A stretch of 64,000 bases of DNA from Candidatus Pacearchaeota archaeon (GCA_023139205.1 JAGLOA010000001.1:906-64905); one strand, 5' to 3'; shown: positions 1,831 through 56,121, counted from the first letter of the stretch. Notes: generated by a model from the letters alone, not told the origin. Made by a program: numbers and translations.

Positions 1831-2295
1831 ATGGTGAATCAAGAAATTCTTGGAGGATTGGAACTGGCGATTGCTAAAGGAGAATCTTTAAAACAGGCTA
1901 TGATGAGTTTTTTTAATGCAGGTTATAAAAGAGGAGAAATAGAAGAAGCTGCAAGAGCCTTTCAAATAAAGCAAAGAGAATTAAGAGAAGTTCTTGATGA
2001 AAAAAATAAAAAGTCAAAAAAGAAAATAAAAAAGTCCAAAAAAATTAAACCAGTGAAGAAAAAAAATGTTAGGTATGTCCAAAAAGTTTCAAATTACGAA
2101 GCCCCAAAACCAATGAAAAAACCCTTGGAGAAAAAAGGAAAACAAAAAATTTCTAATTATGGAGAAAAACCAAAATTAGTAGGAAAAATTTTGACTTTTA
2201 TATTCATCTTTCTTTTATTCATCTTGCTGGGAGTTTTAGCAAGTGTTTTTTTCTTTAAACAAGAATTAATTGATTTTTTTAATAAATTTGTTTAA
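1831..2295 (+). CDS. hypothetical lysine-rich protein with C-terminal transmembrane helix
   Basis: 154 aa; K-rich centre (KKSKKKIKKSKKIKPVKKK), hydrophobic C-terminus ILTFIFIFLLFILLGVLASVFFF. Confidence 0.4.
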   Translation: MVNQEILGGLELAIAKGESLKQAMMSFFNAGYKRGEIEEAARAFQIKQRELREVLDEKNKKSKKKIKKSKKIKPVKKKNVRYVQKVSNYEAPKPMKKPLEKKGKQKISNYGEKPKLVGKILTFIFIFLLFILLGVLASVFFFKQELIDFFNKFV

Positions 2296-2998
2296 AATGC
2301 TGGAAATCTACAATCCAGAACAAGATTCTTTTCTTTTATCAAAAGTTCTTTTAAAACAAATCCCAAAACTTTTGAAGAAAAATAAAAATTTAACTTTTTT
2401 GGAAATAGGATGTGGAAGTGGAATTCAGCTTCAAACAGCTTTAGAATTAGGAATAAAAAAACAAAATATTTTTTCCTGTGATATAAATCCAAAAGCAGTA
2501 AAACATTGCAAGAAACTTAGATTTCATTGTGTAAAGTCAGATTTATTTGAAAAAATTGGTGATAGGGGGTATCAGTCGGAGGCAATGAAAAGATACCTCC
2601 CTTCCACGCTTCGAGGAAGGAGCGAGGTTATCGAGTTGCGAGAAAAATCGCGAAATCGACAACGTCAACTCGGTGGCCGAGTTGGGAGGAAAATCAAGGG
2701 GTTTCCTCGCAAATATAATTTAATTATTTTTAATCCTCCTTATTTGCCTGAAGATAAAAGAGAGCCAAAAAATTCTTGTTTAGCAACAACAGGAGGAAAA
2801 AAAGGAAATGAAATTATCTTAAGATTTTTAAAACAAGCAAAAAAATATCTTGAAGAAGATGGGAAAATTTTTCTTATAACTTCTTCTCTTTCAGAAAAAA
2901 TTGATTTTGAAAAGTTGGGATACAAGGAAAAAGAAATTGGATGCGAGAAATTATTTTTTGAAAGGTTGTGTGTTTGGGAGATAAAATTATTTAAATGA
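2270..2998 (+). CDS. HemK/Mtq2-family protein N5-glutamine methyltransferase carrying an in-frame 150-nt GC-rich insertion
   Basis: Motif I LEIGCGSGIQ and catalytic NPPY (LIIFNPPYLP). Canonical spacing SDLFEKIG..KYNLIIFNPPY is interrupted by a 50-aa hydrophilic insert (DRGYQSEAMKRYLPSTLRGRSEVIELREKSRNRQRQLGGRVGRKIKGFPR) encoded by the GC-rich element at 2561-2710. Confidence 0.7.
   Translation: MIFLINLFKMLEIYNPEQDSFLLSKVLLKQIPKLLKKNKNLTFLEIGCGSGIQLQTALELGIKKQNIFSCDINPKAVKHCKKLRFHCVKSDLFEKIGDRGYQSEAMKRYLPSTLRGRSEVIELREKSRNRQRQLGGRVGRKIKGFPRKYNLIIFNPPYLPEDKREPKNSCLATTGGKKGNEIILRFLKQAKKYLEEDGKIFLITSSLSEKIDFEKLGYKEKEIGCEKLFFERLCVWEIKLFK
2561..2710 (+). repeat. GC-rich hairpin element, copy A (family with 8398-8480 and 17656-17759), inserted in frame in the methyltransferase CDS
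   Basis: Stem GGGGGUAUC/GAUACCUCC enclosing loop with invariant UCGGAGGCAAU; also shares GAGGAAAATCAAGGGGTT with copy C; exactly 150 nt (3n), no stop. Confidence 0.6.
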
Positions 2999-3016: not shown

Positions 3017-3850
3017 ATGAACAAGAAAAACAATCTCCCCTATTCATTAAATTGGTTAGATTTGAATTGGGAAAAGAAAAAATACAAAAATATTTGGGTG
3101 TTAACTTTGTCAAACCAGACTGAAGATTATTATGATCTGGTTACAAATTATGGGAATTTATTTTCAGAAATCTTTTTAGAAATTAAAAAATTAAATCTCT
3201 TCGCTTCAACACCTCGCATTAATGTAGCTTTATTTCCTAGTGAGATCTTTGCAGAAAAAACCAAAATACCTTTTTCTTGGGGAATCGGGTGTGTGCGTTC
3301 AACAAATGGAAAATTCTCGGATACTTTATGTTATAAATATATTCCAAGTAGAAAAATCCCTACTTTTAATAGATCAACCCTCGAAGGAAAACGTGGAAAT
3401 ATCCATGAAGTAGTTCACCTTTTCTTTGCCAAACAAATTCCATTTAGTACTAGGGCAATAAATGAGGGTTTTGCTGAATTTGTTCCAAGAATTCTTTTTA
3501 ATCTTCAGAAAGGTTTAACTGAATCAACTAATTATTTTAATTCATTAACAGAAAAAGATATTGTAACTTTTGGAGAAATTGACACTAAAGGATTAGCATA
3601 TTTCTCATCAGAATTGATTGGTAAAAATAAAGCATATGCCTCAGCGTTCCTAGGGATTTTATGGCTAGTAGATGCTTTTTGTGGGAAAAATAAAAATTAT
3701 TTTACTGGAGCAAAGAAACTAATTAAGATTTTATCAGACTGCAAAAATGCAGAAGAATGTTATGAAAGCATTTACAAAAAAACAAAAGTGGATTTAAGAA
3801 ATTCAAAAGCTCCAATCTTAGAAGGTATAAACTTGCTAAAAACCAAATAA
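3017..3850 (+). CDS. HExxH zinc-metallopeptidase-like protein (paralogue of 31547..32287 and 34470..35165)
   Basis: HEVVH followed by NEGFAEF (HExxH...NEGxAx[FY] signature shared by three ORFs in this window). Confidence 0.5.
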   Translation: MNKKNNLPYSLNWLDLNWEKKKYKNIWVLTLSNQTEDYYDLVTNYGNLFSEIFLEIKKLNLFASTPRINVALFPSEIFAEKTKIPFSWGIGCVRSTNGKFSDTLCYKYIPSRKIPTFNRSTLEGKRGNIHEVVHLFFAKQIPFSTRAINEGFAEFVPRILFNLQKGLTESTNYFNSLTEKDIVTFGEIDTKGLAYFSSELIGKNKAYASAFLGILWLVDAFCGKNKNYFTGAKKLIKILSDCKNAEECYESIYKKTKVDLRNSKAPILEGINLLKTK

Positions 3851-29953: not shown

Positions 29954-30118
29954 ATGGAAAAACTTGAAGCAAAAGCTGAAGAATTTGTTGGAAAAATGGA
30001 ACTTCGTTGCAAAGGTTGGTGCCATGACAAATATGAAATGAGATGTAAAGGATGGTGTCATGATGGAACTCCAAAAATGTATGACACAGATTTTCCAAAT
30101 GTTGAATACTTTAATTAA
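29954..30118 (+). CDS. candidate RiPP precursor peptide (54 aa) with tandem RCKGWCHD core repeats
   Basis: MEKLEAKAEEFVGKMELRCKGWCHDKYEMRCKGWCHDGTPKMYDTDFPNVEYFN; ends 36 nt upstream of the rSAM/SPASM gene; below the 60-aa ORF-track cutoff. Coordinates anchored on the antisense ORF 29924..30226 frame. Confidence 0.5.
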   Translation: MEKLEAKAEEFVGKMELRCKGWCHDKYEMRCKGWCHDGTPKMYDTDFPNVEYFN

Positions 30119-30154: not shown

Positions 30155-31564
30155 ATGAGACTTTCTAAATTTACCCATGTTTATGAATGTATTTATGAAG
30201 AAAACTGCTATTACCTTATTAGACATTCAATAACAAATAAATCTTTCTTTTTTACTGAAAAGGATTTTAACAAATTAGTTGAGGATTTAAAAAGCAAGAA
30301 AGAAACAGATGAAATAAACATCTTAAAGCAGAATCATCTTTTAGTCCAGGATTCTTATTCTGAAACTAAATTTGTTAATTACTTAAAAGAATCTAATAAT
30401 CTAAATAAATTTGATTTAGAATTAATCTATTTAATTTTTAATACTAGTTGTAATCTTAGATGTAAATATTGTTATGTAGAAGGAAGTGCCAAACTAGGGT
30501 TTAAGAATGATTCTATGAATGAAAAAACTTTTAATAAATTGATGGATTATCTTAATAAATTAATCCAACATCAAAAAAGGAAGAATCCTCTCAAAAATAA
30601 ATTAACTTTTATTTATTATGGGTCTGAACCCCTGATGTCAAAAAATTTTTTTATAAAAAGCTTAAAAATAATTCAAAAAATTTGTAATGAGAATAAAATC
30701 ACCCCAGATTTTCAAATAACTACTAATGGAACTCTTTTTGATGATGCGATTATAAAAGCAATGAAAGAATTTAAGGTTGGTGTTTCAATTTCTTTGGATG
30801 GAGAAAAAAAGATTAATGATTCTATGAGGATAACACAAAGTGGGAGGGGAAGTTATGATAAAATAATTATTGCAATAAATCTTTTAAAAAAATCAAAGAT
30901 TCCTTTTGGTATCTCTTGCACCATTAGTCAACACAATATAAATCATCTCAAAGAAAATGTAGATCATTTTATCAAATTAGGGGCTAGTAGTGTAGGATTT
31001 AATATACTTTTAAATGCAAGATATTCAAATATCCCTTTGATCCCCTTAACAACCTTAAATAATAATCTTTTGGAGGCTTCAAAAAAAGTTAATGATTTAG
31101 GCTTTTATGAAGATAGAATTCAAAGAAAAGTTCGGGCTTTTAATGGTATTCCCAGATTTAAGGATTGTGGAGGTGTCGGAAATCAATTAGTATTTTTTCC
31201 TAATGGAGACATAGGACCTTGTGAGGCTTATCTTTGCAATAGAAAATTTAATGCAGGAAATATAAAAACACTTAAAATTGAAGAGATTGAAAAAAGCCCT
31301 GTTCTAAAATATTGGACAAAAAGGTATCCTCTGAATATGGAAGAATGTTTATATTGCCCAGCATTGGGGATTTGTGGAGGAGGATGCCCATTTAATGCAG
31401 AAACAATTTCCAAGAAAAATATTTATCAAAGAGATAAACCTTTCTGCGTTCATACAGAGATGGTATTAAATTATTTGCTAAAAAAAAGCATTGAAGATAA
31501 AACAGGAAAAAAAGATCCATATATTAGAGATATAACTTTTATGTATTCAGATAATCTTTTTTAA
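30155..31564 (+). CDS. radical SAM / SPASM-domain peptide-modifying enzyme (N-terminal RRE-like region)
   Basis: CNLRCKYCY (CxxxCxxC), GSEPLM, ISLDG, C-terminal SPASM cysteines CGGVGN..CEAYLC..CLYCPALGICGGGCPFN; about 95-aa N-terminal extension before the rSAM core. Confidence 0.8.
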   Translation: MRLSKFTHVYECIYEENCYYLIRHSITNKSFFFTEKDFNKLVEDLKSKKETDEINILKQNHLLVQDSYSETKFVNYLKESNNLNKFDLELIYLIFNTSCNLRCKYCYVEGSAKLGFKNDSMNEKTFNKLMDYLNKLIQHQKRKNPLKNKLTFIYYGSEPLMSKNFFIKSLKIIQKICNENKITPDFQITTNGTLFDDAIIKAMKEFKVGVSISLDGEKKINDSMRITQSGRGSYDKIIIAINLLKKSKIPFGISCTISQHNINHLKENVDHFIKLGASSVGFNILLNARYSNIPLIPLTTLNNNLLEASKKVNDLGFYEDRIQRKVRAFNGIPRFKDCGGVGNQLVFFPNGDIGPCEAYLCNRKFNAGNIKTLKIEEIEKSPVLKYWTKRYPLNMEECLYCPALGICGGGCPFNAETISKKNIYQRDKPFCVHTEMVLNYLLKKSIEDKTGKKDPYIRDITFMYSDNLF

Positions 31565-32287
31565 TTCATCCAGTGCAAAATCTAAAATTTTCTTATTGTC
31601 TGAATTTTCTTTAAATTTTTTCTCAAAAATTTTAAATCCAAGATTCCTGTTTGAAATTAGTAGATTCTCAAAAATTTTATCAAATTTTTCTATGTCAAAA
31701 TTATTTAGCATTTTTTTATATGGTGGCTTCTCTTGATTTTTTTTGGATATTTTCATTTTTTTAATAGTTGAAATAGTTGAGATATCAACTTCCTCTAAAA
31801 TTTTCTTAGTCATAAACTCTGCATAACCTTCATCAAATTGGATAATTTTCTTATTCCCAATAAATTTATTTTTGTTAAATTTAAATTTTAAATAATTAAT
31901 ATCTTTTTTAATTTTTTTAGACAAATGTAAATGCAATGATTCATGAATTATTAATTCTAAAAAATCAATTGAAAAATATTCCCCTCTGTTAAATGGATTA
32001 AAATTCATTTCAATTATAGAATTTTTTTTAAAATCTATTGTTCCATAAGTCCCATTATTTAATGCACATTTTATTATCTCCTTTGAAATCCTGCTATTAA
32101 AACCATAACTTTCTACTTCTAATAGAACTTTTTCTATAAATCTCTTAAATGAATTATAAAAATAAATTTTTTTTGGAATAGAAATCTCATTTTTTCTGAG
32201 TAATTTTTCTGCAAAAATAATAATTTTTTTAAGATAGTCTTTTTCAAATTTATTAAATGAATTATTTGGACTAATAATTAATTCCAT
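31547..32287 (-). CDS. HExxH metallopeptidase-like protein convergent with the rSAM gene (candidate leader peptidase)
   Basis: LIIHESLHLHL (HExxH) and downstream DEGYAEF; paralogue of 3017..3850 and 34470..35165. Confidence 0.45.
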   Translation of the reverse strand: MELIISPNNSFNKFEKDYLKKIIIFAEKLLRKNEISIPKKIYFYNSFKRFIEKVLLEVESYGFNSRISKEIIKCALNNGTYGTIDFKKNSIIEMNFNPFNRGEYFSIDFLELIIHESLHLHLSKKIKKDINYLKFKFNKNKFIGNKKIIQFDEGYAEFMTKKILEEVDISTISTIKKMKISKKNQEKPPYKKMLNNFDIEKFDKIFENLLISNRNLGFKIFEKKFKENSDNKKILDFALDELKKII

Positions 32288-32323: not shown

Positions 32324-32385
32324 ATTTTCTATTTCTTCTTTTTCTTCCCCAACAATTTCTTAAATTTTCCTTTCTTTTTTAAAAT
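32324..32385 (+). repeat. direct repeat R3 (native copy, C-terminal coding region of 32329..33750)
   Basis: Encodes ILKKKGKFKKLLGKKKKK* on the minus strand; matches R1. Confidence 0.7.
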
Positions 32386-33750
32386 AAAAAATACATAAAT
32401 AAATGCAACAACTATAATTGTAACTACAATTCCATAATAATCAAAAAATGGCATTTGAATTTGTGCAGGACAAGGAACTGTTTTACTTCCCCCAACACAT
32501 TTTTTAGATGCTTCATCTGGATCATAATAACATTTCCCATCTTTATATAAAACATAATTCACTTTACATGGATCATCTGTAGTACCTTCATTTCCTTCAT
32601 CCCATTCCCATTCAGCTGTCCAAGTATAAGACATAAGTCCATCTTCACAAGTATCATCTGTACTCTTAGAAGAAACACACTTCCCAATTGTTGAAGGATA
32701 ATCTACAAGAGGAGCACAACCAGTTGTATCAAAAGTACATTCATTTTCTGTTCCAGTGGCATAACAAGCTAATCCAGTTCCTTCATTTAAATTAAAATCA
32801 GCACAAGTTTTGCTATTTAATAAAGTTCCATCACAAGTTTCCCCTAAATTTATTTCAGCACCATCACATAATCCTGCTGGATTACATCCAGTACATGATT
32901 CAATATTTAATGTACATTCATTTTCATGCCCCGGAGCATAACAAGATAAAGTTCCTGCAGTACAATCATCTATATTTCCACTACTACAATCTGTAAAAGG
33001 CATATCTGTTCCATCACATTTTTCTCCAGAACCTATTTCATTATTTCCACAATAATCAGAAAAAATTTCTCTCCAACCAGAAATACACCCATCTACCTCG
33101 CTCCACTCACAATAACAAGCCTTAGAATTTGAACTACAATCTATATCATATGTTTCTTTAGCATCATCACTTGCTACACCACAAGGATCAAAACCACATT
33201 CATTTTCATTATAATCTCCACAAGAAGCAACTTCTCCTATTCTACATGAAATAATATTGCAACAAATATTTCTTGAATAATCTTGATATGCTCCAATATG
33301 TGCATTAGTTGTTCCAGATAAAGAAAGAATCCCAACAGAATAATCTTCTTCTGCACAATTTCCTTCAGTATCAACACAAGTTAATCCATTATAACAAACA
33401 TCTTCATCATAAGTTATATCTTGAACTCTTTGAGCATGAGCATTTGTTTTAGAAGACAAACCAATTAATTTATTTGAAGAAATTCCTGCCCCATATATTG
33501 CGTGGTCTGTTAAAGAGCATTCATTTAGTTGAACCCCATTTCCAAAATCACAACACAAAGCATAATTATAATTTCCTTCATCATGAAGTTCTCCATGAGC
33601 ATTTGTAGAAGCAGACAACCCTAAAACAACATGGTCTCCATTGTTAAGGCAATTCTCTTTTGTGTCAACATAGCAAGTTTCAGCAGAAGCAATTCCTAAA
33701 AAAAGAATTAAAACTAAAATCATAAACAAACCTAACACTCTTTTTTTCAT
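32329..33750 (-). CDS. secreted cysteine-rich repeat protein with C-terminal TM anchor and lysine tail
   Basis: Signal peptide, about 60 Cys, repeated S(A/K/G)(S/T)TNAH(G/A/I) units, C-terminal VVTIIVVAFIYVFFILKKKGKFKKLLGKKKKK. Confidence 0.45.
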   Translation of the reverse strand: MKKRVLGLFMILVLILFLGIASAETCYVDTKENCLNNGDHVVLGLSASTNAHGELHDEGNYNYALCCDFGNGVQLNECSLTDHAIYGAGISSNKLIGLSSKTNAHAQRVQDITYDEDVCYNGLTCVDTEGNCAEEDYSVGILSLSGTTNAHIGAYQDYSRNICCNIISCRIGEVASCGDYNENECGFDPCGVASDDAKETYDIDCSSNSKACYCEWSEVDGCISGWREIFSDYCGNNEIGSGEKCDGTDMPFTDCSSGNIDDCTAGTLSCYAPGHENECTLNIESCTGCNPAGLCDGAEINLGETCDGTLLNSKTCADFNLNEGTGLACYATGTENECTFDTTGCAPLVDYPSTIGKCVSSKSTDDTCEDGLMSYTWTAEWEWDEGNEGTTDDPCKVNYVLYKDGKCYYDPDEASKKCVGGSKTVPCPAQIQMPFFDYYGIVVTIIVVAFIYVFFILKKKGKFKKLLGKKKKK

Positions 33751-33793: not shown

Positions 33794-34081
33794 TTAAAAA
33801 TAAGAAAATGTTATAATCTTCCAAAGAGAAACATTTAAAGGAGATAAAAATATTACATTTCTATGGGAATAATTGATTTCATTAAATGATTTAGAATCTG
33901 TAATCCATTCTGCAAAGCCATCTTCACAAATTACAGGATAACCTTTTAATTTTTCATTTACAATCTCCTTAAATTTTGGAGAAATTGAAATAAGGGGATT
34001 ATCATGTACCAATCCATACACAAAATAAGAAACTTCTTCTAAATAAATCCTTTTTCCAAATAATAGAGAACATTCTTTCAT
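33794..34081 (-). CDS. hypothetical protein
   Basis: 95-aa ORF between the Cys-rich protein and the precursor-like ORFs. Confidence 0.3.
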   Translation of the reverse strand: MKECSLLFGKRIYLEEVSYFVYGLVHDNPLISISPKFKEIVNEKLKGYPVICEDGFAEWITDSKSFNEINYSHRNVIFLSPLNVSLWKIITFSYF

Positions 34082-34208
34082 TTTTAAAAAATTTAAATTT
34101 TATAATGCAGCACCCAGAGCATATGCGGCCATTCCAGCAGCTACACCCGCGGGAGATAGCACAATTGTCCAAGCACTTTTGAAGCATCCACAACTCATAC
34201 AAGAACAA
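34002..34208 (-). CDS. small cysteine-rich protein; GC-rich island 34105-34200 is open in two overlapping minus frames
   Basis: Track frame: ..KCLDNCAISRGCSCWNGRICSGCCII.. The +1 frame (ATG about 34198 to stop about 34100) gives MSCGCFKSAWTIVLSPAGVAAGMAAYALGAAL and has AT-rich third positions, unlike the track frame. Confidence 0.3.
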   Translation of the reverse strand: MFLYELWMLQKCLDNCAISRGCSCWNGRICSGCCIIKFKFFKNERMFSIIWKKDLFRRSFLFCVWIGT

Positions 34209-34282
34209 GCATTCACATTATACTCTAACTTACTTGCTTCGTCTATATTTGTGTCGTTAAATTCAAGTTTCTCTAGTAAAAT

Positions 34283-34477
34283 TTATGGACGAGGTAAACT
34301 ATTGCAAGAGACATCGCAAACATCACAACGATCGCAGGCAATACAATAATCATCCTTGTTTTTTGGAGAAGGTGATAAAATTTCTGCTTTTGCAAGACTT
34401 TCCAATAAATTAGAATCTTCTGCATCTACTTTTTCTTTTGTATATTTTTCTGATACTTGATTATATTTCTTATTCAT
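34283..34477 (-). CDS. candidate RiPP precursor peptide (64 aa), Cys/Asp-rich C-terminal core
   Basis: Helical leader (DSNLLESLAKAEIL) then DDYCIACDRCDVCDVSCNSLPRP; start overlaps the stop of the HExxH peptidase by 8 nt, in an operon with the rSAM/SPASM gene. Confidence 0.5.
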   Translation of the reverse strand: MNKKYNQVSEKYTKEKVDAEDSNLLESLAKAEILSPSPKNKDDYCIACDRCDVCDVSCNSLPRP

Positions 34478-35165
34478 TTGTATGAATCCTCCCTTTCATC
34501 TCTATAAATTCTTTTGGGGTGACCCCAAAGACCATATTAAATTTTTTATTAACCAAATCATCATTATCTCCTGATTGTATTTGATTTAAAAATTCAAATA
34601 ATTTTTTTCTTCCTTTTTCTTGACTAAGAATTTTATCTATAATAAAATATCCTGCAAAATAATCTTTTTTGTAATCTTTCATCCCCTTTAACAAACATTC
34701 TTCATCCCCTATTTTAAAATCTTTTATATTGAAATTTGGCGAAACAAATTGATACTTAAAATATGTAGCGATTCCTTCATTAATTAATCTTAGATTGGGA
34801 TGTTTCAAACCCCCATAAAATAAATGCGAAATTTCATGTGCAATTATTCCTCTAATTTCTTCTTTTTTATGAATTGTGCATTCTTCAACTACTGAAGGTG
34901 AAAACACAATTATTTTATTAGGATAAGTCACTTGCCCAACTATCCACTTTTCAAATTTATCTCTTCCAGAAAAAAAGATAAATTCTTCAGGAGAATAAAC
35001 TAAACACAACCTAATAGGATTTATGTCTTCTTCAGAATTAAAAAAAGTCTTAATTTCTTGATACATTTTATCTAATTCTAAAGAGTCAATAAAATCTTTA
35101 TCTTTTTCTTCAAATCTTATTAAAAAATTATCTTTTTTCTTTATCATTTTAAGTGTTATAAACAA
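34470..35165 (-). CDS. HExxH metallopeptidase-like protein (candidate leader peptidase)
   Basis: IIAHEISHLFYGG and NEGIATYF; immediately downstream of rSAM 35170..36471. Confidence 0.5.
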   Translation of the reverse strand: MFITLKMIKKKDNFLIRFEEKDKDFIDSLELDKMYQEIKTFFNSEEDINPIRLCLVYSPEEFIFFSGRDKFEKWIVGQVTYPNKIIVFSPSVVEECTIHKKEEIRGIIAHEISHLFYGGLKHPNLRLINEGIATYFKYQFVSPNFNIKDFKIGDEECLLKGMKDYKKDYFAGYFIIDKILSQEKGRKKLFEFLNQIQSGDNDDLVNKKFNMVFGVTPKEFIEMKGRIHTNE

Positions 35166-35169
35166 TTTA

Positions 35170-36471
35170 TTATTTTTCAGGTGTTAAAAATTCCTTTGAC
35201 AAAAGAACTTCTCCTAAATCTTTTGCTTTTGTTTGCATATTCTCAGGAAACTCAGACAAGTTAAAATCTCCTTGTTTTTGAAGATTAATTAAAAAATCTT
35301 TTAATCCCTTATTTGCATAAAGGGTTTGTCCATTAAATAAAGTATACTGGTCTTTAAATTCTTTTCTCCAAACAAAATCTCTGACTAAATATTTTTCATT
35401 TAATTCAACTTTTGGTTTTCCATCTCTTTTTATTTGTTGTTTTAAAGGGGAACTCATTCTTGAATCTTTTCTGTCTAGCTTTTCTCCTTCTTTATAACTT
35501 TCGAATCTACACCCTCCTTGACAGAATTTTACTTCAGCACAATCTTCACATTCATTGGGGATATATTCCTTTTTTCTAAATGGTTCTAATTTCTTCCATA
35601 TATCTTCAAAATTTTCTTCAAGAATATTTCCTTCTTTAAATGGAGAATGTCCGCAGGCTCTGACATCCCCTTTAGGAGAAATAATAAAACTTGTTGATCC
35701 TGCAGAGCAGGTCTTATTAAAAATTCTTTCTTCGCGTAAATGCTTAGGCAAAGCACAAAGAGGAATAACTTCTAAACTGGAAATATTTATCCCAAAGTCC
35801 CCCCTTAATTTTATCAAGTCTTCCAGTGGCTTAATCAAATCTTCTTTTGAAAGAGTGTGGGGTATCTCTTTTTTAGGAGGGTTTACTAAAGGAGTTGCAG
35901 CGAAATTCTTTATGCCATAATTTTCATACAAATATTTTCCTGTTTCATAAACTTCACTTTTGTTTAATTGATGAAATACCATATTTGGAACCACATGAAC
36001 TCCTTTGCGGAGAGCATTTTCTAAATTTTCATAAAATCTGGAGAGATTATTTTTTCCTGTTATTTGCTTATATAATTCCTTTTTATGACTGGGAATAGAA
36101 GTTAAAATTTGCAAATTAGGTTTTAAGAATAAGATTTTATCCAATCTTTCTTTAGTTAATAAAGTTAAATTAGAATTTAAATTATTAAATATTTTAGCTT
36201 CTTCAAATCTTTTCATTAAATATAATGTTACATTAAAATTCGTGAGGGGTTCTCCCCCTGTCAAAACAATGTGAAAAGGTCTTATATCGTTTATTATTTT
36301 ATCTGATAGAATTTTTGCATCTTCTTTTGTCATTTTGTTAGAAGCATTATTTTTTCTCCAATGATTATAACAATAAAAGCATTTATGGTTGCAATCTTCT
36401 GTAACTTCAATTTGCACATTAAGAGGAGATTTTAATCCAACACTTTTTTCCATTTTCCTTATATTTTTCAA
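35170..36471 (-). CDS. radical SAM / SPASM-domain enzyme
   Basis: CNHKCFYCY (CxxxCxxC) near the N-terminus, VLTGGEP, C-terminal Cys cluster CEDCAEVKFCQGGCRFESY (SPASM/twitch-like). Confidence 0.75.
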   Translation of the reverse strand: MKNIRKMEKSVGLKSPLNVQIEVTEDCNHKCFYCYNHWRKNNASNKMTKEDAKILSDKIINDIRPFHIVLTGGEPLTNFNVTLYLMKRFEEAKIFNNLNSNLTLLTKERLDKILFLKPNLQILTSIPSHKKELYKQITGKNNLSRFYENLENALRKGVHVVPNMVFHQLNKSEVYETGKYLYENYGIKNFAATPLVNPPKKEIPHTLSKEDLIKPLEDLIKLRGDFGINISSLEVIPLCALPKHLREERIFNKTCSAGSTSFIISPKGDVRACGHSPFKEGNILEENFEDIWKKLEPFRKKEYIPNECEDCAEVKFCQGGCRFESYKEGEKLDRKDSRMSSPLKQQIKRDGKPKVELNEKYLVRDFVWRKEFKDQYTLFNGQTLYANKGLKDFLINLQKQGDFNLSEFPENMQTKAKDLGEVLLSKEFLTPEK

Positions 36472-42855: not shown

Positions 42856-43155
42856 TCATCCTCCAATTAAATGATGGTATTCTTTTTTTTCAGAAATTTT
42901 TATTAGTTTATTTAAGAGACCATTTAATATTTTTTTTCTTTGCTCATCTTTTGCATCACCTAGTAATGTAACCCATGAAGTTTTGAATGTTTTAGTTAAT
43001 GGTGCAAGACCATATACTAATAAAGTATTTATGATTAAAGTATTATTTGTATTTGTTAATTCTGCAAGTTCTTTTACTAAATTTAATGTTGTTTTATCTA
43101 TGTTTAAAGAAATTTTTTTCTGAGGATTTAATGGGCTTTCTATTAGTTTTTTCAT
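42856..43155 (-). CDS. hypothetical protein
   Basis: 99-aa ORF. Confidence 0.3.
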   Translation of the reverse strand: MKKLIESPLNPQKKISLNIDKTTLNLVKELAELTNTNNTLIINTLLVYGLAPLTKTFKTSWVTLLGDAKDEQRKKILNGLLNKLIKISEKKEYHHLIGG

Positions 43156-43252
43156 AATATAACTATAATACTAAAGTATATATAAATTTTTCTTTTAGAT
43201 AAATATTCTTTATGATTTCCCTAGTCTACATTTCTTGATAATTTTATTAAAT

Positions 43253-44665
43253 TCAACCCTTCACAACACACAAAGGTTTTAACCTAACAACTTTTTTGCT
43301 AATTCCAAGTTCATCCACAACCCTTACAACTTCGTCAATATCTTTGTAAGCATCAGGTGCTTCCTGAACAAGTCCTTTCCAGCTCCCAGATTTAACCTCA
43401 ATACCTTTTTCATAAAGTTCTTTTTTCACATCTTCACCTTTTCTATCTCTTGAAGCTTCTGCCCTGCTTTTTACTCTCCCTGCTCCATGAACAGTGCTCC
43501 CAAAAGTTAATTCCTCTGCTTTTTTTGTTCCAACTAAAACATAACTTGAAGTTCCCATACTCCCTGGAATCAAGACCGGCTGTCCAATCTTTCTATAAGC
43601 AATAGGAATTTCTTTTCTACCTGGACCAAAACTTCTGGTCGCACCTTTTCTATGAACAAGAACAATTTTCTTTTTGCCTTTAACAATATGCTTTTCAAAC
43701 TTTGCAATATTGTGGCAGATATCATAAACAACATCAATTTTAATTTTTGGAAAAAGATATTTCATTTCTTCTCTAACCCAATGAGTAATTATCTGTTTAT
43801 TTACAAAAGCAAAATTTGCAGCACAAGCCATAGCAGAAAGATAATCTTCCCCTAATTTACTTTTTATTGGAGCATTAACCAATTCCCTGTCAAAGTCGGG
43901 GTAGCCATATTTCTCCCCCATTTTTTTAATATAATCAGAAGCAACTTGATGGCCCAATCCTCGGGAACCGCAATGAATCATAATTGTAACCTGATTTTTT
44001 TTCAATCCAAAAACTTTAGCAATTTTTTCATCAAAAATTTCATCAACATACTGCACCTCTAAAAAATGATTTCCTGCTCCCAAAGTTCCCAACTGCCCAA
44101 GACCTCTTTTTATTGCTCTTTCTGAAACCTTGCTTACATCTGCTCCTTTCATACATCCTTCTTCCTCCATATGCAGATAATCTTCTTTCACCCCATAACC
44201 TTTCTCCACAATATATTTCGCTCCACCCTTTAAAACTTTTTCAAGTTCTTTTTTAGTAATCTGAAATTTGCTCCCTTTTCCAAGACCAGAAGGAATTTTT
44301 CTATAAAGTGCCTCAACAACTTTTTTTTGATTTTCTACAATATCTTTTTTTGTTAAATTAGTTTTCAAAAGTCTTACACTACAATTAATATCATATCCCA
44401 CCCCTCCAGGAGAAATAATCCCCCTATCTAAATCAAAAGCTGCAACACCCCCAATAGAAAAACCATATCCTTGATGAGCATCTGTTAAAGCAATTGATGC
44501 CTTTAAAATTCCAGGCAAACACGCAATGTTTTTAACTTGCTCCAAAGTTTTATCTTTTTTAATTGCTTCAAGAATTTTTTCAGAAGCATAAATCATTCCA
44601 GGAACATTCATTTTCCCTTCTTTAGGAATTTCATAAATATTGTTTCCTATTTTTTTAAGTTCCAT
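43253..44665 (-). CDS. rtcB: RtcB-family RNA 3'-phosphate ligase (tRNA-splicing ligase)
   Basis: LGAGNHFLEVQ, HGAGR, PGSMG and other RtcB metal/GMP-binding motifs; 470 aa. Confidence 0.85.
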   Translation of the reverse strand: MELKKIGNNIYEIPKEGKMNVPGMIYASEKILEAIKKDKTLEQVKNIACLPGILKASIALTDAHQGYGFSIGGVAAFDLDRGIISPGGVGYDINCSVRLLKTNLTKKDIVENQKKVVEALYRKIPSGLGKGSKFQITKKELEKVLKGGAKYIVEKGYGVKEDYLHMEEEGCMKGADVSKVSERAIKRGLGQLGTLGAGNHFLEVQYVDEIFDEKIAKVFGLKKNQVTIMIHCGSRGLGHQVASDYIKKMGEKYGYPDFDRELVNAPIKSKLGEDYLSAMACAANFAFVNKQIITHWVREEMKYLFPKIKIDVVYDICHNIAKFEKHIVKGKKKIVLVHRKGATRSFGPGRKEIPIAYRKIGQPVLIPGSMGTSSYVLVGTKKAEELTFGSTVHGAGRVKSRAEASRDRKGEDVKKELYEKGIEVKSGSWKGLVQEAPDAYKDIDEVVRVVDELGISKKVVRLKPLCVVKG

Positions 44666-55793: not shown

Positions 55794-55828
55794 AATAAGT
55801 TTATTAAACTTTTTATAATAAGATCAGT

Positions 55829-56087
55829 GTAGACTCAGAGGGTTGCTCTTAGATAATTAAAAAGCTACCTTTATTTTTCCTCGGTTCTGCGACCTGTCAA
55901 GCATCTTAACAAATGTTTAGGGCTGCTCCGATCAAGGTCTGACCCAGTTCGCATATGCAAGATCAAAACAGACAAAACGTCAACGTCCAAACAAAGACTT
56001 TTCAACGCACTAATCACGCCCCTCCTTGCAGTCTGCCATAAAGCCCGTTTGCAAAAGGCAGAGGGCTAACCTGCCAACCTAGTCTAC
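55829..56087 (-). ncRNA. candidate signal recognition particle (7S/SRP) RNA
   Basis: About 260-nt GC-enriched ORF-free island. On the minus strand, 5' GUAGACU pairs with 3' AGUCUAC (terminal helix). 5'-domain hairpins GGCAG-GUUAGCCCU-CUGCC and UUGCA-AACGGGCUUUAUGGCAGAC-UGCAA have complementary loops (AGCCC/GGGCU, Alu-domain-like). The apical hairpin GGGUCAGACC-UUGAUC-GGAGCAGCCC resembles the helix-8 SRP54-binding consensus GGUCAG..AGCAGCC. Confidence 0.5.
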
Positions 56088-56121
56088 AAAAAAGATAGAA
56101 ATAAAGAGTTTTTAAGCTTAA

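What the first reader, a model, noticed from the sequence alone, without database searches (positions are those of the whole stretch)
34002..36471. Candidate RiPP cluster 2: rSAM/SPASM - HExxH peptidase - Cys/Asp-rich precursor - second Cys-rich small ORF in a GC-rich island
Four co-directional minus-strand genes sit in a tight operon-like array (8-nt overlap between peptidase stop and precursor start). The rSAM has CNHKCFYCY plus a C-terminal Cys cluster. The HExxH/NEGIATYF peptidase is paralogous to the one in cluster 1. The 64-aa peptide has a helical leader and core DDYCIACDRCDVCDVSCNSLPRP; alternating Cys/Asp is the substrate pattern of thioether-forming rSAMs (ranthipeptide/QhpD-like Cys-Asp links). 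Downstream, a strongly GC-rich 100-nt island is open in two overlapping frames, both Cys-rich. The frame with AT-rich third positions encodes MSCGCFKSAWTIVLSPAGVAAGMAAYALGAAL, a glycine-zipper-like hydrophobic helix. So this may be a second precursor, an immunity peptide, or a bacteriocin-like peptide. Two paralogous precursor+rSAM+peptidase modules lie within 7 kb of each other, next to large secreted Cys-rich proteins.
Basis: partly seen in the sequence, partly recalled or inferred. Interest (0 to 1): 0.8.

Follow-up and report, generated by a model that had tools for sequence, protein, structure and literature searches.

The report
Archaeal peptide-modifying cassette plus broken neighbour
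A tiny symbiotic-type archaeon carries a conserved three-gene set that most likely makes a cross-linked cysteine-rich peptide, and the odd GC-rich spot beside it is a broken leftover of a second, different peptide-making set.

Summary
The features are at the stated coordinates. The window is a ~28.6% GC Pacearchaeota (DPANN) contig.

**Type A cassette (supported).** The radical-SAM/SPASM enzyme, HExxH protein and 64-aa Cys/Asp-rich peptide recur as a unit.
- The rSAM and HExxH protein recur together in 17 of 18 DPANN loci.
- A leader-plus-"CD"-rich-core peptide is adjacent in 16 of 17 usable loci.
- No other gene recurs.
- The rSAM meets no curated family cut-off (SCIFF, PapB, QhpD, anSME, MftC, PqqE).
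- The HExxH protein models as a minimal M1/M9-like gluzincin.

So this is a real but uncharacterised archaeal rSAM-RiPP-type cassette. Thioether chemistry is inferred, not shown.

**GC island (reinterpreted).** It is neither an RNA nor a free-standing 38-aa gene.
- That family always sits in a different cassette: a CcpM/RumMC-like rSAM, the peptide, then a ~201-aa protein.
- The window holds only a ~415-bp fragment of such a cassette.
- The peptide gene lacks its first 12 codons, its Shine-Dalgarno site and its ATG, and begins in frame right after the 64-aa gene's stop.
- The 95-aa ORF is the 5' third of the ~201-aa gene.
- No matching rSAM lies nearby.

**Paralogy with cluster 1.** Not supported.

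The parts
35170..36471 (-). Type A radical SAM/SPASM enzyme. The ORF is 433 aa from a TTG at 36471. The likely true start is the ATG at 36453, giving 427 aa.
   Evidence: Pfam Radical_SAM 69.6 bits, SPASM 37.8 bits (cut-off 21.5), Fer4_12 40 bits. TIGR04085 SPASM domain 49.2 bits against a cut-off of 27; every equivalog model is far below its cut-off. C27/C31/C34 and seven further Cys are invariant in 32 homologues. AF2 model pLDDT 92.8. Foldseek best hits are SuiB, anSME, CteB and SkfB. Gene calls of 427 aa in near-identical contigs.
34470..35165 (-). Type A stand-alone minimal gluzincin-type (HExxH...NEG) metallopeptidase, the putative leader peptidase. The likely start is the ATG at 35147, giving 225 aa.
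   Evidence: HEISH, then E in NEGIATYF. H104, E105, H108 and E124 (numbering from the ATG start at 35147) are invariant in 10 homologues. Sub-threshold Pfam hits: Peptidase_M1 23.0 vs 27.7, BSP, DUF2268. Best AF2 model pLDDT 81.5. Foldseek hits are M9 collagenase and M1 aminopeptidase catalytic domains, E 1.7e-4, TM about 0.53. Found next to the rSAM in 17 of 18 loci. Annotated as KAJ87_00205, 225 aa.
34283..34477 (-). Type A precursor peptide, 64 aa. Leader contains NLLESLAKAEIL. Core is DDYCIACDRCDVCDVSCNSLPRP.
   Evidence: Annotated hypothetical protein MCK5149331.1 / KAJ87_00200. GGGAGG lies upstream of the ATG. Homologous or analogous 56-84-aa peptides lie next to the rSAM/peptidase in 16 of 17 usable loci. 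Synonymous-codon score 0.26, within the range of real genes. 43 of 98 core Cys in the family are followed by Asp.
34100..34282 (-). 5'-truncated copy of a 'type B' (~72-aa, sactipeptide-like) precursor gene. It reads ILLEKLEFNDTNIDEASKLEYNVNACSCMSCGCFKSAWTIVLSPAGVAAGMAAYALGAAL*. It starts immediately after, and in frame with, the TAA of the 64-aa gene.
   Evidence: 20 homologues of 69-74 aa, E 1e-16 to 4e-12, 72-90% identity. DNA is 81-85% identical to intact genes in L065 and L063 from just after the stop codon onward. Codons 1-12, the GGAGG site and the ATG of the intact genes are missing. No gene is called here by NCBI or by metagenome annotators. Changes specific to the window lineage: 9 synonymous, 2 non-synonymous.
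33794..34081 (-). 3'-truncated copy of the type B ~201-206-aa gene, the '95-aa ORF'. The homologous part is about 33869-34081, the first ~71 codons. The rest is an unrelated read-through tail.
   Evidence: tblastn with the L062 and L059 201/206-aa proteins: 43-47% identity over residues 1-93, E 1e-18 to 3e-22. 83-88% nt identity to L063/L065 over the first 213 nt. The alignment shows loss of the C-terminal ~130 residues. The otherwise invariant first His of HGxVH is Tyr here.

Best explanation
**Two things lie side by side.**

**1. Positions 34283-36453 are an intact three-gene peptide-maturation cassette ('type A') specific to DPANN archaea.**
- The 64-aa product has an N-terminal leader with a conserved NLLESLxxAEIL helix and a C-terminal Cys/Asp-rich core.
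- The radical SAM/SPASM enzyme carries one SAM cluster plus seven invariant Cys for auxiliary clusters. It most likely binds the leader, possibly through its extra C-terminal strand-and-helix domain.
- It then most likely uses a 5'-deoxyadenosyl radical to cross-link core cysteines to carbon atoms of neighbouring residues. The best guess is Cys-S to Asp/Asn thioethers, as in ranthipeptides and QhpC.
- The small gluzincin metallopeptidase then most likely removes the leader.
- No transporter or immunity gene belongs to the unit.
- *Shown:* gene content, conservation, domain identities, and leader/core architecture.
- *Inferred:* leader binding, the chemistry, and leader cleavage.

**2. Positions 33794-34282 are a ~415-bp homologous fragment of a second, unrelated cassette ('type B'), followed by a ~75-bp unrelated read-through tail.**
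- The intact type B cassette is: a CcpM/RumMC-like rSAM, then a ~72-aa peptide with a CxCxxCxC motif followed by a hydrophobic Ala/Gly-rich tail, then a ~201-aa protein.
- Both ends of the fragment are cut. The peptide gene lost its first 12 codons and its start signals. The ~201-aa gene lost its C-terminal two thirds. The rSAM is gone.
- The GC richness comes from the Ala/Gly/Cys codons of the conserved core.
- The fragment is most likely a recent, non-functional relic. It is probably carried on the 3' end of the type A transcript.
For: **Type A cassette**
- 141 rSAM homologues at E <= 1e-10. All those named by a source are DPANN archaea.
- 15 orthologous genome loci, all from DPANN MAGs.
- The peptidase is adjacent in 17 of 18 loci; the one exception ends inside the rSAM gene.
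- A precursor is present in 16 of 17 usable loci, although gene order varies in L009, L010 and L012.
- The leader motif is conserved. The core is variable, with 4-10 Cys, and 43 of 98 Cys are followed by Asp.
- Tandem cassettes with different cores occur in L047 and L009.
- No other neighbouring gene recurs.
- The rSAM has rSAM + SPASM domains. Its model is confident and closest to peptide-modifying SPASM enzymes.
- The peptidase has a gluzincin motif and fold.
- PapB provides a precedent for Cys-Asp thioethers at CXnD with n = 0-6 (PMC9413430). The window core contains three overlapping CX3D motifs, read directly from the sequence.

**Relic**
- Homologues exist only for frame A.
- The type B context is constant in all 5 independent contigs that extend far enough.
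- Breakpoints are visible in the DNA alignment.
- The ~201-aa gene is truncated and has lost a conserved His.
- There is no type B rSAM in the window, nor within 10 kb beyond either end in near-identical contigs.
- No start codon with a Shine-Dalgarno site is present.
- No gene is called there by any annotator.
- In relative L062 the whole type B cassette lies between RtcB and a 95-aa gene. Those two genes are adjacent in the window, so these cassettes come and go.
Against: - No chemistry is shown.
- The rSAM's nearest curated families are NirJ2/MftC/AhbD/PqqE, not thioether synthases.
- A recognition (RRE) domain could not be demonstrated.
- Four of the five peptidase structure models were poor.
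- There is no export or immunity gene.
- For the relic, the core is intact and 9 of 11 lineage-specific changes are synonymous. The truncation is therefore recent, or the peptide is still made from the internal GTG/ATG.
- The remainder of the genome could not be searched for an intact type B rSAM.
Confidence: 0.7

Rival explanations
1. The island ORF is an expressed, free-standing small hydrophobic peptide (bacteriocin-like, immunity or membrane peptide). It would be translated from the GTG at 34216 or the ATG at 34198.
For: - The core is uninterrupted and 72-90% identical to intact family members.
- Lineage-specific changes are 9 synonymous to 2 non-synonymous.
- The sequence is identical in five near-identical contigs (L053-L057) from several samples.
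Against: - No Shine-Dalgarno site precedes either internal start, although this organism's genes and the intact family use GGAGG.
- The leader is lost and no cognate rSAM lies within about 84 kb.
- The adjacent type B gene is also truncated.
- The synonymous-codon score is 0.03, below the 5th percentile of real genes.
- It is not called by any annotator.
- One contig carries two non-synonymous changes at conserved residues.
Confidence: 0.17
2. The type A cassette makes a peptide-derived small-molecule cofactor, as in the PQQ or mycofactocin pathways, rather than a modified peptide product.
For: - The best curated rSAM matches are NirJ2, MftC, AhbD and PqqE.
- Like those pathways, the unit consists of an rSAM, a peptidase and a short peptide, with no transporter.
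- Many homologous precursors end in C-Y-S-L/M.
Against: - All those matches are far below their cut-offs: 59-79 bits against 265-500.
- The core varies in length, Cys number (4-10) and C-terminus between orthologues. Two different cores occur in tandem in one genome. This is unlike the invariant residues of cofactor precursors, as known for PqqA and MftA.
- No partner dehydrogenase recurs.
Confidence: 0.08
3. The GC island is a structured non-coding RNA gene.
For: GC-rich islands in this AT-rich genome can be RNA genes. The island at 55827-56089 is an SRP RNA.
Against: - No tRNA.
- No Rfam match, even at E <= 10.
- Folding z-scores are -1.45 and +1.04.
- Protein-level homologues exist with mostly synonymous differences.
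Confidence: 0.02
4. The rSAM is an anaerobic sulfatase-maturing enzyme or another maturase of large proteins, for example of the neighbouring secreted Cys-rich proteins. The 64-aa ORF would then be incidental.
For: - anSME is among the top structural neighbours.
- Cys-rich secreted proteins flank the cassette here. A homologue also lies near the cassette in L007.
Against: - anSME model scores 58 bits against a 349-bit cut-off.
- The Cys-rich protein is near the cassette in only 1 of the other loci, whereas the small peptide is there in 16 of 17.
Confidence: 0.03

Closest known systems
Ranthipeptide systems: PapB/PapA (freyrasin), SCIFF/CteB, NxxC
   Same: - A radical SAM/SPASM enzyme sits next to a short precursor with a leader and a Cys-rich core.
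- Cys/Asp pairs occur in the core, and the window peptide has three overlapping CX3D motifs.
- PapB links the Cys sulfur to the Asp beta-carbon and tolerates CXnD with n = 0-6 (PMC9413430).
- CteB is among the best structural matches.
   Different: - The rSAM scores far below the PapB (58.7 vs 340) and SCIFF (44.1 vs 425) cut-offs.
- There is no N-terminal RRE; instead there is a ~95-residue C-terminal domain.
- The dominant core unit is the adjacent dipeptide C-D.
- A dedicated mini-gluzincin always accompanies it.
- The hosts are DPANN archaea.
- The chemistry is untested.
QhpD/QhpC/QhpE (quinohemoprotein amine dehydrogenase gamma-subunit maturation)
   Same: An rSAM/SPASM enzyme forms Cys-to-Asp/Glu thioethers in a small Cys-rich polypeptide whose leader is then removed by a dedicated peptidase (own knowledge of the family).
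   Different: - The QhpD model scores 44.8 against a cut-off of 453.
- No dehydrogenase subunit genes are present.
- The peptidase is a gluzincin, not a subtilisin-like enzyme.
- The core varies between orthologues.
MftC/PqqE/NirJ-AhbD branch of SPASM enzymes
   Same: These are the highest-scoring curated models for the rSAM. They share an N-terminus that begins directly with the rSAM domain.
   Different: - Scores are 59-79 bits against cut-offs of 265-500.
- No MftB/PqqD-type partner gene is present.
- The precursor lacks the invariant residues of MftA or PqqA.
M1-family RiPP leader peptidases (AplP/EryP type) and other MA-clan gluzincins
   Same: - HExxH plus a downstream Glu in an xNEGxA motif.
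- The modelled fold matches M1 and M9 catalytic domains; EryP appears among the hits.
   Different: - It is only ~225 aa, a catalytic core without the flanking domains of ~850-aa M1 enzymes.
- The Pfam M1 score is 23.0, below the 27.7 cut-off.
- It forms its own family of about 420 representatives.
Sactipeptide clusters (CcpM, RumMC/ruminococcin C, thuricin-type nested hairpins), for the type B fragment only
   Same: - In intact relatives, the adjacent rSAM's best curated matches are CcpM and RumMC.
- The peptide has N-terminal donor-like cysteines (CxCxxCxC) followed by a ~27-residue stretch. This matches the layout of type I nested-hairpin sactipeptides (PMC8172795).
   Different: - Scores are below the equivalog cut-offs: 208-238 against 500.
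- The partner ~201-aa protein has no known family.
- In this window only a truncated fragment survives, without its rSAM.

Membership tests
Radical SAM superfamily | CX3CX2C cluster motif and Radical_SAM domain | tested here: met
   CNHKCFYC is present, and C27/C31/C34 are invariant. PF04055 scores 69.6 bits against a cut-off of 29.5.
SPASM-domain rSAM enzymes | C-terminal Cys-rich domain for auxiliary Fe-S clusters (CX2CX5CX3C etc.) | tested here: met
   PF13186 scores 37.8 against 21.5. TIGR04085 scores 49.2 against 27. C239, C255, C273, C308, C311, C317 and C321 are invariant.
RiPP biosynthetic cluster (generic) | Short precursor gene with a conserved leader and variable core, next to the modifying enzyme and conserved across genomes | tested here: met
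   16 of 17 usable loci have such a peptide. The cores are hypervariable around a C-D unit.
RiPP biosynthetic cluster (generic) | Post-translational modification of the core actually occurs | not testable with these tools
   Needs expression and mass spectrometry.
RiPP biosynthetic cluster (generic) | RiPP recognition element (PqqD-like) in the enzyme or in a partner | tested here: inconclusive
   There is no N-terminal extension. The modelled C-terminal domain (four strands, then two helices, residues ~360-431) has a compatible topology. There is no PqqD hit. A few members weakly hit winged-helix Pfams. The PDB profile search and hhalign against type B N-termini were uninformative.
SCIFF maturase (TIGR03974) / PapB family (NF047865) / QhpD (TIGR03906) | Score at or above the curated equivalog cut-off | tested here: not met
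   44.1 vs 425; 58.7 vs 340; 44.8 vs 453.
Anaerobic sulfatase-maturing enzyme (TIGR03942) | Equivalog score, and a sulfatase-type substrate | tested here: not met
   58.2 vs 349.45. The conserved partner is a small peptide, not a sulfatase.
MftC (TIGR03962) / PqqE (TIGR02109) / NirJ2 / AhbD | Equivalog score | tested here: not met
   75.4 vs 265; 58.8 vs 381; 79.1 vs 500; 73.2 vs 500.
Gluzincin (MA clan) metallopeptidase | HExxH plus a third-ligand Glu on the following helix; thermolysin-like catalytic fold | tested here: met
   H104, E105, H108 and E124 (numbering from the ATG start at 35147) are invariant. Foldseek hits M9 and M1 catalytic domains at E 1.7e-4 to 1e-3, TM about 0.53. This rests on one good model out of five.
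Peptidase family M1 (PF01433) | Pfam gathering score | tested here: not met
   23.0 bits against 27.7.
Clo7bot Cys-rich peptide (TIGR04333) | Curated score for the 64-aa peptide | tested here: not met
   15.1 against 31.
DPANN ~72-aa CxCxxCxC peptide family (type B precursor; unnamed) | Sequence homology of the island ORF to the family | tested here: met
   E 1e-16 to 4e-12, 72-90% identity. Homology runs through all 22 in-frame codons upstream of the GTG.
DPANN ~72-aa CxCxxCxC peptide family (type B precursor; unnamed) | Full-length gene with its SD and ATG, next to its rSAM and the ~201-aa gene | tested here: not met
   Codons 1-12, the SD and the ATG are missing. The rSAM is absent. The ~201-aa gene is cut after about codon 71.
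Sactipeptide maturase CcpM (TIGR04068) / RumMC (NF035951), for type B rSAMs of relatives | Equivalog score | tested here: not met
   208-238 vs 500; 175-188 vs 720. These are the best matches but are sub-threshold.

The most novel reading that the evidence does not exclude
DPANN archaea may maintain a private repertoire of very small, mobile rSAM peptide cassettes. These would be gained, lost, duplicated and broken at the precursor genes.

The type A enzyme lacks an N-terminal RRE, has a C-terminal extra domain, and sits outside all curated families. It may install a cross-link type not yet described on the repeated adjacent Cys-Asp unit. The product could act in the archaeon's interaction with its host cell or with competitors.

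The in-frame junction of a type A precursor with a type B core would then be a snapshot of how new leader/core combinations arise.
Probability: 0.15. Interest if true: 0.75.

Novelty: new member of a known kind. Interest (0 to 1): 0.45.

Why it matters
No radical-SAM-modified peptide from any archaeon has been characterised. A 2025 survey reports only genome-mining predictions of such clusters in archaea, DPANN included, and notes that before that work only two haloarchaeal lanthipeptides had been validated (PMC12144867).

This cassette is compact: three genes, about 2.2 kb. It is well delimited by comparative genomics and comes with at least 16 natural core variants. That makes it a practical target for heterologous expression.

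DPANN archaea have minimal genomes and depend on hosts. A conserved accessory peptide system in them is therefore a plausible handle on how they interact with hosts or competitors.

The resolution of the GC island is also a caution. An attractive 'second precursor' was in fact a truncated relic, and this was recognisable only by searching the translated frame beyond its apparent start.

Tried and rejected
- **Island as an RNA gene.** ARAGORN found nothing. Rfam found nothing at gathering threshold or at E <= 10. Folding of both strands gave no signal.
- **Frame B (the 68-aa ORF).** It has no homologues, a poor synonymous-codon score (-0.37) and GC3 of 60%, so I rejected it. The only point in its favour is that the two C>A differences in the 717-bp contig L058 are synonymous in that frame. 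That is too little, and possibly sequencing error.
- **Codon usage as a test for frame A.** Inconclusive. The score is 0.03, below the 5th percentile of real genes and at the low edge of GC-rich genic windows.
- **Conservation of the island in the closest type A relatives.** Absent in L047 and L049-L052. This first suggested a spurious ORF, until the protein search showed it belongs to another cassette.
- **First protein search with 38 aa.** I repeated it with four upstream in-frame residues added.
- **RRE detection in the rSAM C-terminal domain.** A PDB profile search, a Pfam scan of 21 members and hhalign against type B N-termini were all uninformative.
- **Paralogy of the two clusters.** Rejected.
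- **Conserved transporter or immunity neighbours.** None found.
- **Intact type B cassette near the window.** None found in the window or in 10 kb beyond each end.
- **Literature.** Three full-text searches for a prior description of this family found only class-level genome-mining statements.


Full report
**Observation**

- 35170-36471: 433 aa, containing CNHKCFYCY.
- 34470-35165: 231 aa, containing HEISH...NEGIATYF.
- 34283-34477: 64 aa, ending ...DDYCIACDRCDVCDVSCNSLPRP.
- 34100-34216: 38 aa.

The peptidase and precursor ORFs overlap by 8 nt. The window averages 28.6% GC. Positions 34107-34206 reach 52%, the second-highest 100-nt window in 64 kb. The island is open in two frames.

Exact look-ups place the window in a Candidatus Pacearchaeota MAG:
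- the 473-aa Cys-rich protein is KAJ87_00190;
- the 95-aa ORF is KAJ87_00195;
- the 64-aa peptide is KAJ87_00200;
- the peptidase (225 aa from the ATG at 35147) is KAJ87_00205.

Nothing is annotated between 00195 and 00200. Metagenome gene calls on near-identical contigs also have nothing there. They start the rSAM at the ATG at 36453, giving 427 aa.

**The rSAM-peptidase-peptide trio is a conserved unit ('type A')**

- The rSAM has 141 homologues at E <= 1e-10. Every one that a source names is a DPANN archaeon: Pacearchaeota, Woesearchaeota, Nanobdellota/Nanoarchaeia or Tiddalikarchaeum.
- A scan of species-representative genomes returned 15 orthologous loci with 35-79% identity, all from DPANN MAGs.
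- I clustered all ORFs from 18 loci: the window, L001-L015, L047 and L049. Only two families recur. The rSAM is in 18 of 18 and the HExxH protein in 17 of 18. The exception is a contig that ends inside the rSAM gene.
- A 56-84-aa peptide with a Cys-rich C-terminus lies next to them in 16 of 17 usable loci. It usually follows the peptidase. In L010 it lies upstream of the rSAM, and in L012 it directly follows the rSAM.
- L047 and L009 carry two cassettes in tandem with different cores.
- The peptides share a leader motif, (N/S)xLLE(S/N)Lxx A(E/K)(I/F)L.
- The core is variable, with 4-10 cysteines. 43 of 98 cysteines are followed directly by Asp, 11 by Asn and 10 by His.
- No transporter, immunity or regulator gene recurs.

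**The enzyme**

- Pfam finds Radical_SAM, Fer4_12 and SPASM above threshold.
- NCBIfam finds the generic SPASM domain above threshold, but no equivalog. The best are NirJ2 (79 bits, cut-off 500), MftC (75/265), AhbD (73/500), PqqE (59/381), PapB (59/340), anSME (58/349), QhpD (45/453) and SCIFF (44/425).
- In 32 homologues the CX3CX2C cysteines and seven further cysteines are invariant, including CX2CX5CX3C.
- The AlphaFold model is confident (pLDDT 92.8, pTM 0.90). The rSAM domain begins at about residue 18, so there is no N-terminal recognition domain.
- After the SPASM region there is an extra domain of four strands followed by two long helices, at residues ~360-431.
- Foldseek places the core nearest to SuiB, anSME, CteB, SkfB and TigE.
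- I tested whether the extra domain is a leader-recognition element with a PDB profile search, a Pfam scan of 21 members and hhalign. I found only a few weak winged-helix hits. This remains an inference.

**The HExxH protein**

- H104, E105, H108 (HExxH) and E124 (xNEGxA), numbered from the ATG start at 35147, are invariant in ten homologues.
- Pfam gives only sub-threshold hits to Peptidase_M1, BSP and DUF2268.
- One of five AlphaFold models was good (pLDDT 81.5).
- That model matches the catalytic domains of M9 collagenases and M1 aminopeptidases (E 1.7e-4 to 1e-3, TM about 0.53). The lanthipeptide leader peptidase EryP appears further down the list.
- A profile search of 1.84 billion representatives finds 421 relatives at E <= 1e-3 and 126 at <= 1e-10, nearly all about 200-250 aa.
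- It is therefore a stand-alone minimal gluzincin. A leader-peptidase role is inferred from its constant position.

**The GC island**

I first tested the obvious alternative, a structured RNA.
- There is no tRNA.
- There is no Rfam match at gathering threshold or at E <= 10.
- Neither strand shows a folding signal (z = -1.45 and +1.04).

The closest type A relatives (89% and 78% rSAM identity) have no counterpart of the island. Five near-identical contigs (L053-L057) carry it unchanged, and L058 differs at two positions. Codon usage favours the 38-aa frame over the 68-aa frame (0.03 against -0.37). It still lies below the 5th percentile of real genes.

The decisive result came from a protein search with the 38-aa frame extended by four upstream in-frame residues. 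It found 20 proteins of 69-74 aa, E 1e-16 to 4e-12, 72-90% identical. An example is MNQRIDEYNNQKNLLEKLESDSTNIDEASKLEYNVDACSCMSCGCFKSAWTVVLAPAGIAAGTAAYGADMAL.

The window reads ...SLPRP* ILLEKLEFNDTNIDEASKLEYNVNACSCMSCGCFKSAWTIVLSPAGVAAGMAAYALGAAL*. So the homology runs through all 22 sense codons between the TAA of the 64-aa gene and the GTG. The two reading frames are the same (34285 - 34216 = 69).

**What that family is**

- In every contig long enough to show context (L059/L060, L062, L063/L064, L065), the ~72-aa gene follows an rSAM of 448-464 aa and precedes a 201-206-aa protein.
- That rSAM's best curated matches are the Cys-rich-peptide maturase CcpM (208-238 bits, cut-off 500), the sactipeptide maturase RumMC, and PapB.
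- The peptide and the ~201-aa protein match no Pfam or NCBIfam family.
- The peptide has four clustered cysteines (CxCxxCxC) followed by about 27 mostly small or hydrophobic residues. This is the layout of nested-hairpin sactipeptides (PMC8172795). It is a resemblance, not a test.

**The window holds only a fragment of such a 'type B' cassette**

- DNA alignment with three intact cassettes shows 81-88% identity to L063 and L065 (68-72% to L062). It runs from just after the 64-aa gene's stop to about 33869.
- Upstream, the fragment lacks codons 1-12, the GGAGG site and the ATG of the intact genes.
- Downstream, the 95-aa ORF equals the first ~71 codons of the ~201-aa gene. It then runs into unrelated sequence until a chance stop. 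The otherwise invariant first His of HGxVH is Tyr.
- No type B rSAM is in the window, nor in 10 kb beyond either end on near-identical contigs.
- In L062 the complete type B cassette lies between RtcB and a 95-aa gene. The window has RtcB (43253-44665) directly next to the homologous 99-aa ORF (42856-43155). These cassettes are therefore insertion/deletion variable between relatives.
- The island's GC content follows from the Ala/Gly/Cys codons of the conserved core.
- Along the window's lineage, the precursor remnant has 9 synonymous and 2 conservative non-synonymous changes. This confirms that frame A was the selected frame. It also means the truncation is recent or the peptide is still used.
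- Neither internal start has a Shine-Dalgarno site, although the 64-aa gene and the intact type B genes do.
- One short contig has two non-synonymous changes at conserved residues.
- I judge a non-functional relic the most likely reading (about 0.65-0.7 given the fragment). Expression from an internal start is the main rival.

**Claims that fail**

- The cluster-1 HExxH protein (31547-32287) is not detectably related to the cluster-2 peptidase (BLASTP E = 2; family profile gives no hit).
- That profile weakly hits a third HExxH protein at 3017-3850 instead.
- The cluster-1 rSAM (30155-31564) is a different subfamily. It scores FibroRumin 200 bits, PapB 159 and anSME 138, and has an N-terminal extension. 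It shares only a SPASM stretch with the cluster-2 enzyme.
- Its likely precursor is an unrelated 54-aa peptide with a duplicated RCKGWCHD (29954-30118).
- The region is better described as three different rSAM-peptide cassettes, one of them broken, rather than two paralogous modules.

**Mechanism**

*Shown:*
- a conserved leader/core peptide;
- an rSAM with a full set of auxiliary-cluster cysteines;
- a gluzincin.

*Inferred:*
- The rSAM binds the leader.
- It abstracts a hydrogen from an acceptor residue of the core and joins it to a cysteine sulfur. The auxiliary cluster may hold the substrate cysteine, as described for CteB (own knowledge).
- The gluzincin then removes the leader.

The preferred acceptor is Asp or Asn, for two reasons. 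C-D is the recurrent unit. PapB provides a precedent for Cys-to-Asp beta-carbon links at CXnD with n = 0-6 (PMC9413430). The window core has three overlapping CX3D motifs. I put thioether formation at about 0.45. Peptide modification of some kind I put at about 0.8.

**Comparison and novelty**

The cassette works like a ranthipeptide/sactipeptide-type RiPP cluster. It fails the membership cut-offs of every curated family tested.

A 2025 survey of archaeal genomes reports antiSMASH-predicted rSAM RiPP clusters across archaea, including DPANN. It notes that before that work only two haloarchaeal lanthipeptides had been validated experimentally (PMC12144867). My other full-text searches found no description of this family.

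I therefore file it as a new, uncharacterised family within a known kind. The 'second precursor' is a truncated relic.

Noticed in passing
window 55827-56089 (-): A third GC-rich intergenic island is an archaeal SRP RNA. Rfam RF01857 scores 75.4 bits, E 2.9e-17. That is below the family's gathering score of 96.5, so the default scan missed it.
   Followed up: partly
window 2561-2700, inside ORF 2270-2998 (+): This is the most GC-rich 100-nt stretch of the window (54%). It lies inside an NPPY-type methyltransferase-like ORF and reads like an insertion (…GDRGYQSEAMKRYLPSTLRGRSEVIELREKSRNRQRQLGGRVGRKIKGF…). There is no Rfam match. Unexplained.
   Followed up: partly
window 29954-30118 (+), with 30155-31564 (+) and 31547-32287 (-): Cluster 1 has its own, unrelated candidate precursor directly upstream of its rSAM: MEKLEAKAEEFVGKMELRCKGWCHDKYEMRCKGWCHDGTPKMYDTDFPNVEYFN, with a duplicated RCKGWCHD. 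That rSAM is FibroRumin/PapB/anSME-like, with sub-threshold scores.
   Followed up: partly
window 42856-43253 versus L062 380-2673: In a relative, the complete type B cassette (rSAM, 72-aa peptide, 201-aa protein) lies exactly between RtcB and a 95-aa gene. Those two genes are direct neighbours in the window. The cassette is therefore an insertion/deletion polymorphism between related genomes.
   Followed up: partly
L047 345-2509 and 4919-7055; L009 3224-6299: Some relatives carry two type A cassettes in tandem, with clearly different precursor cores. The two rSAMs in L047 are only about 48% identical.
   Followed up: partly
window 34100-34282 (-): Seven of the nine synonymous changes specific to the window's copy of the type B remnant go from A/T to G/C at third positions. 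This runs against the genome's strong AT bias and partly explains its poor codon-usage score.
   Followed up: no
window 32329-33750 (-) and L007 8627-9928: The secreted Cys-rich 473-aa protein has repeated (L/I)xLSxxTNAH motifs. A homologue (37% identity over ~190 aa) lies about 0.5 kb downstream of the type A cassette in L007, and in none of the other loci.
   Followed up: no
window 3017-3850 (+): A third small HExxH...NEGFAEF protein (277 aa) is weakly related to the cluster-2 peptidase family (E 8e-5 against the window's ORFs). It is not next to any rSAM.
   Followed up: no
window 1-64000: ARAGORN finds no tRNA gene in the whole 64 kb.
   Followed up: no
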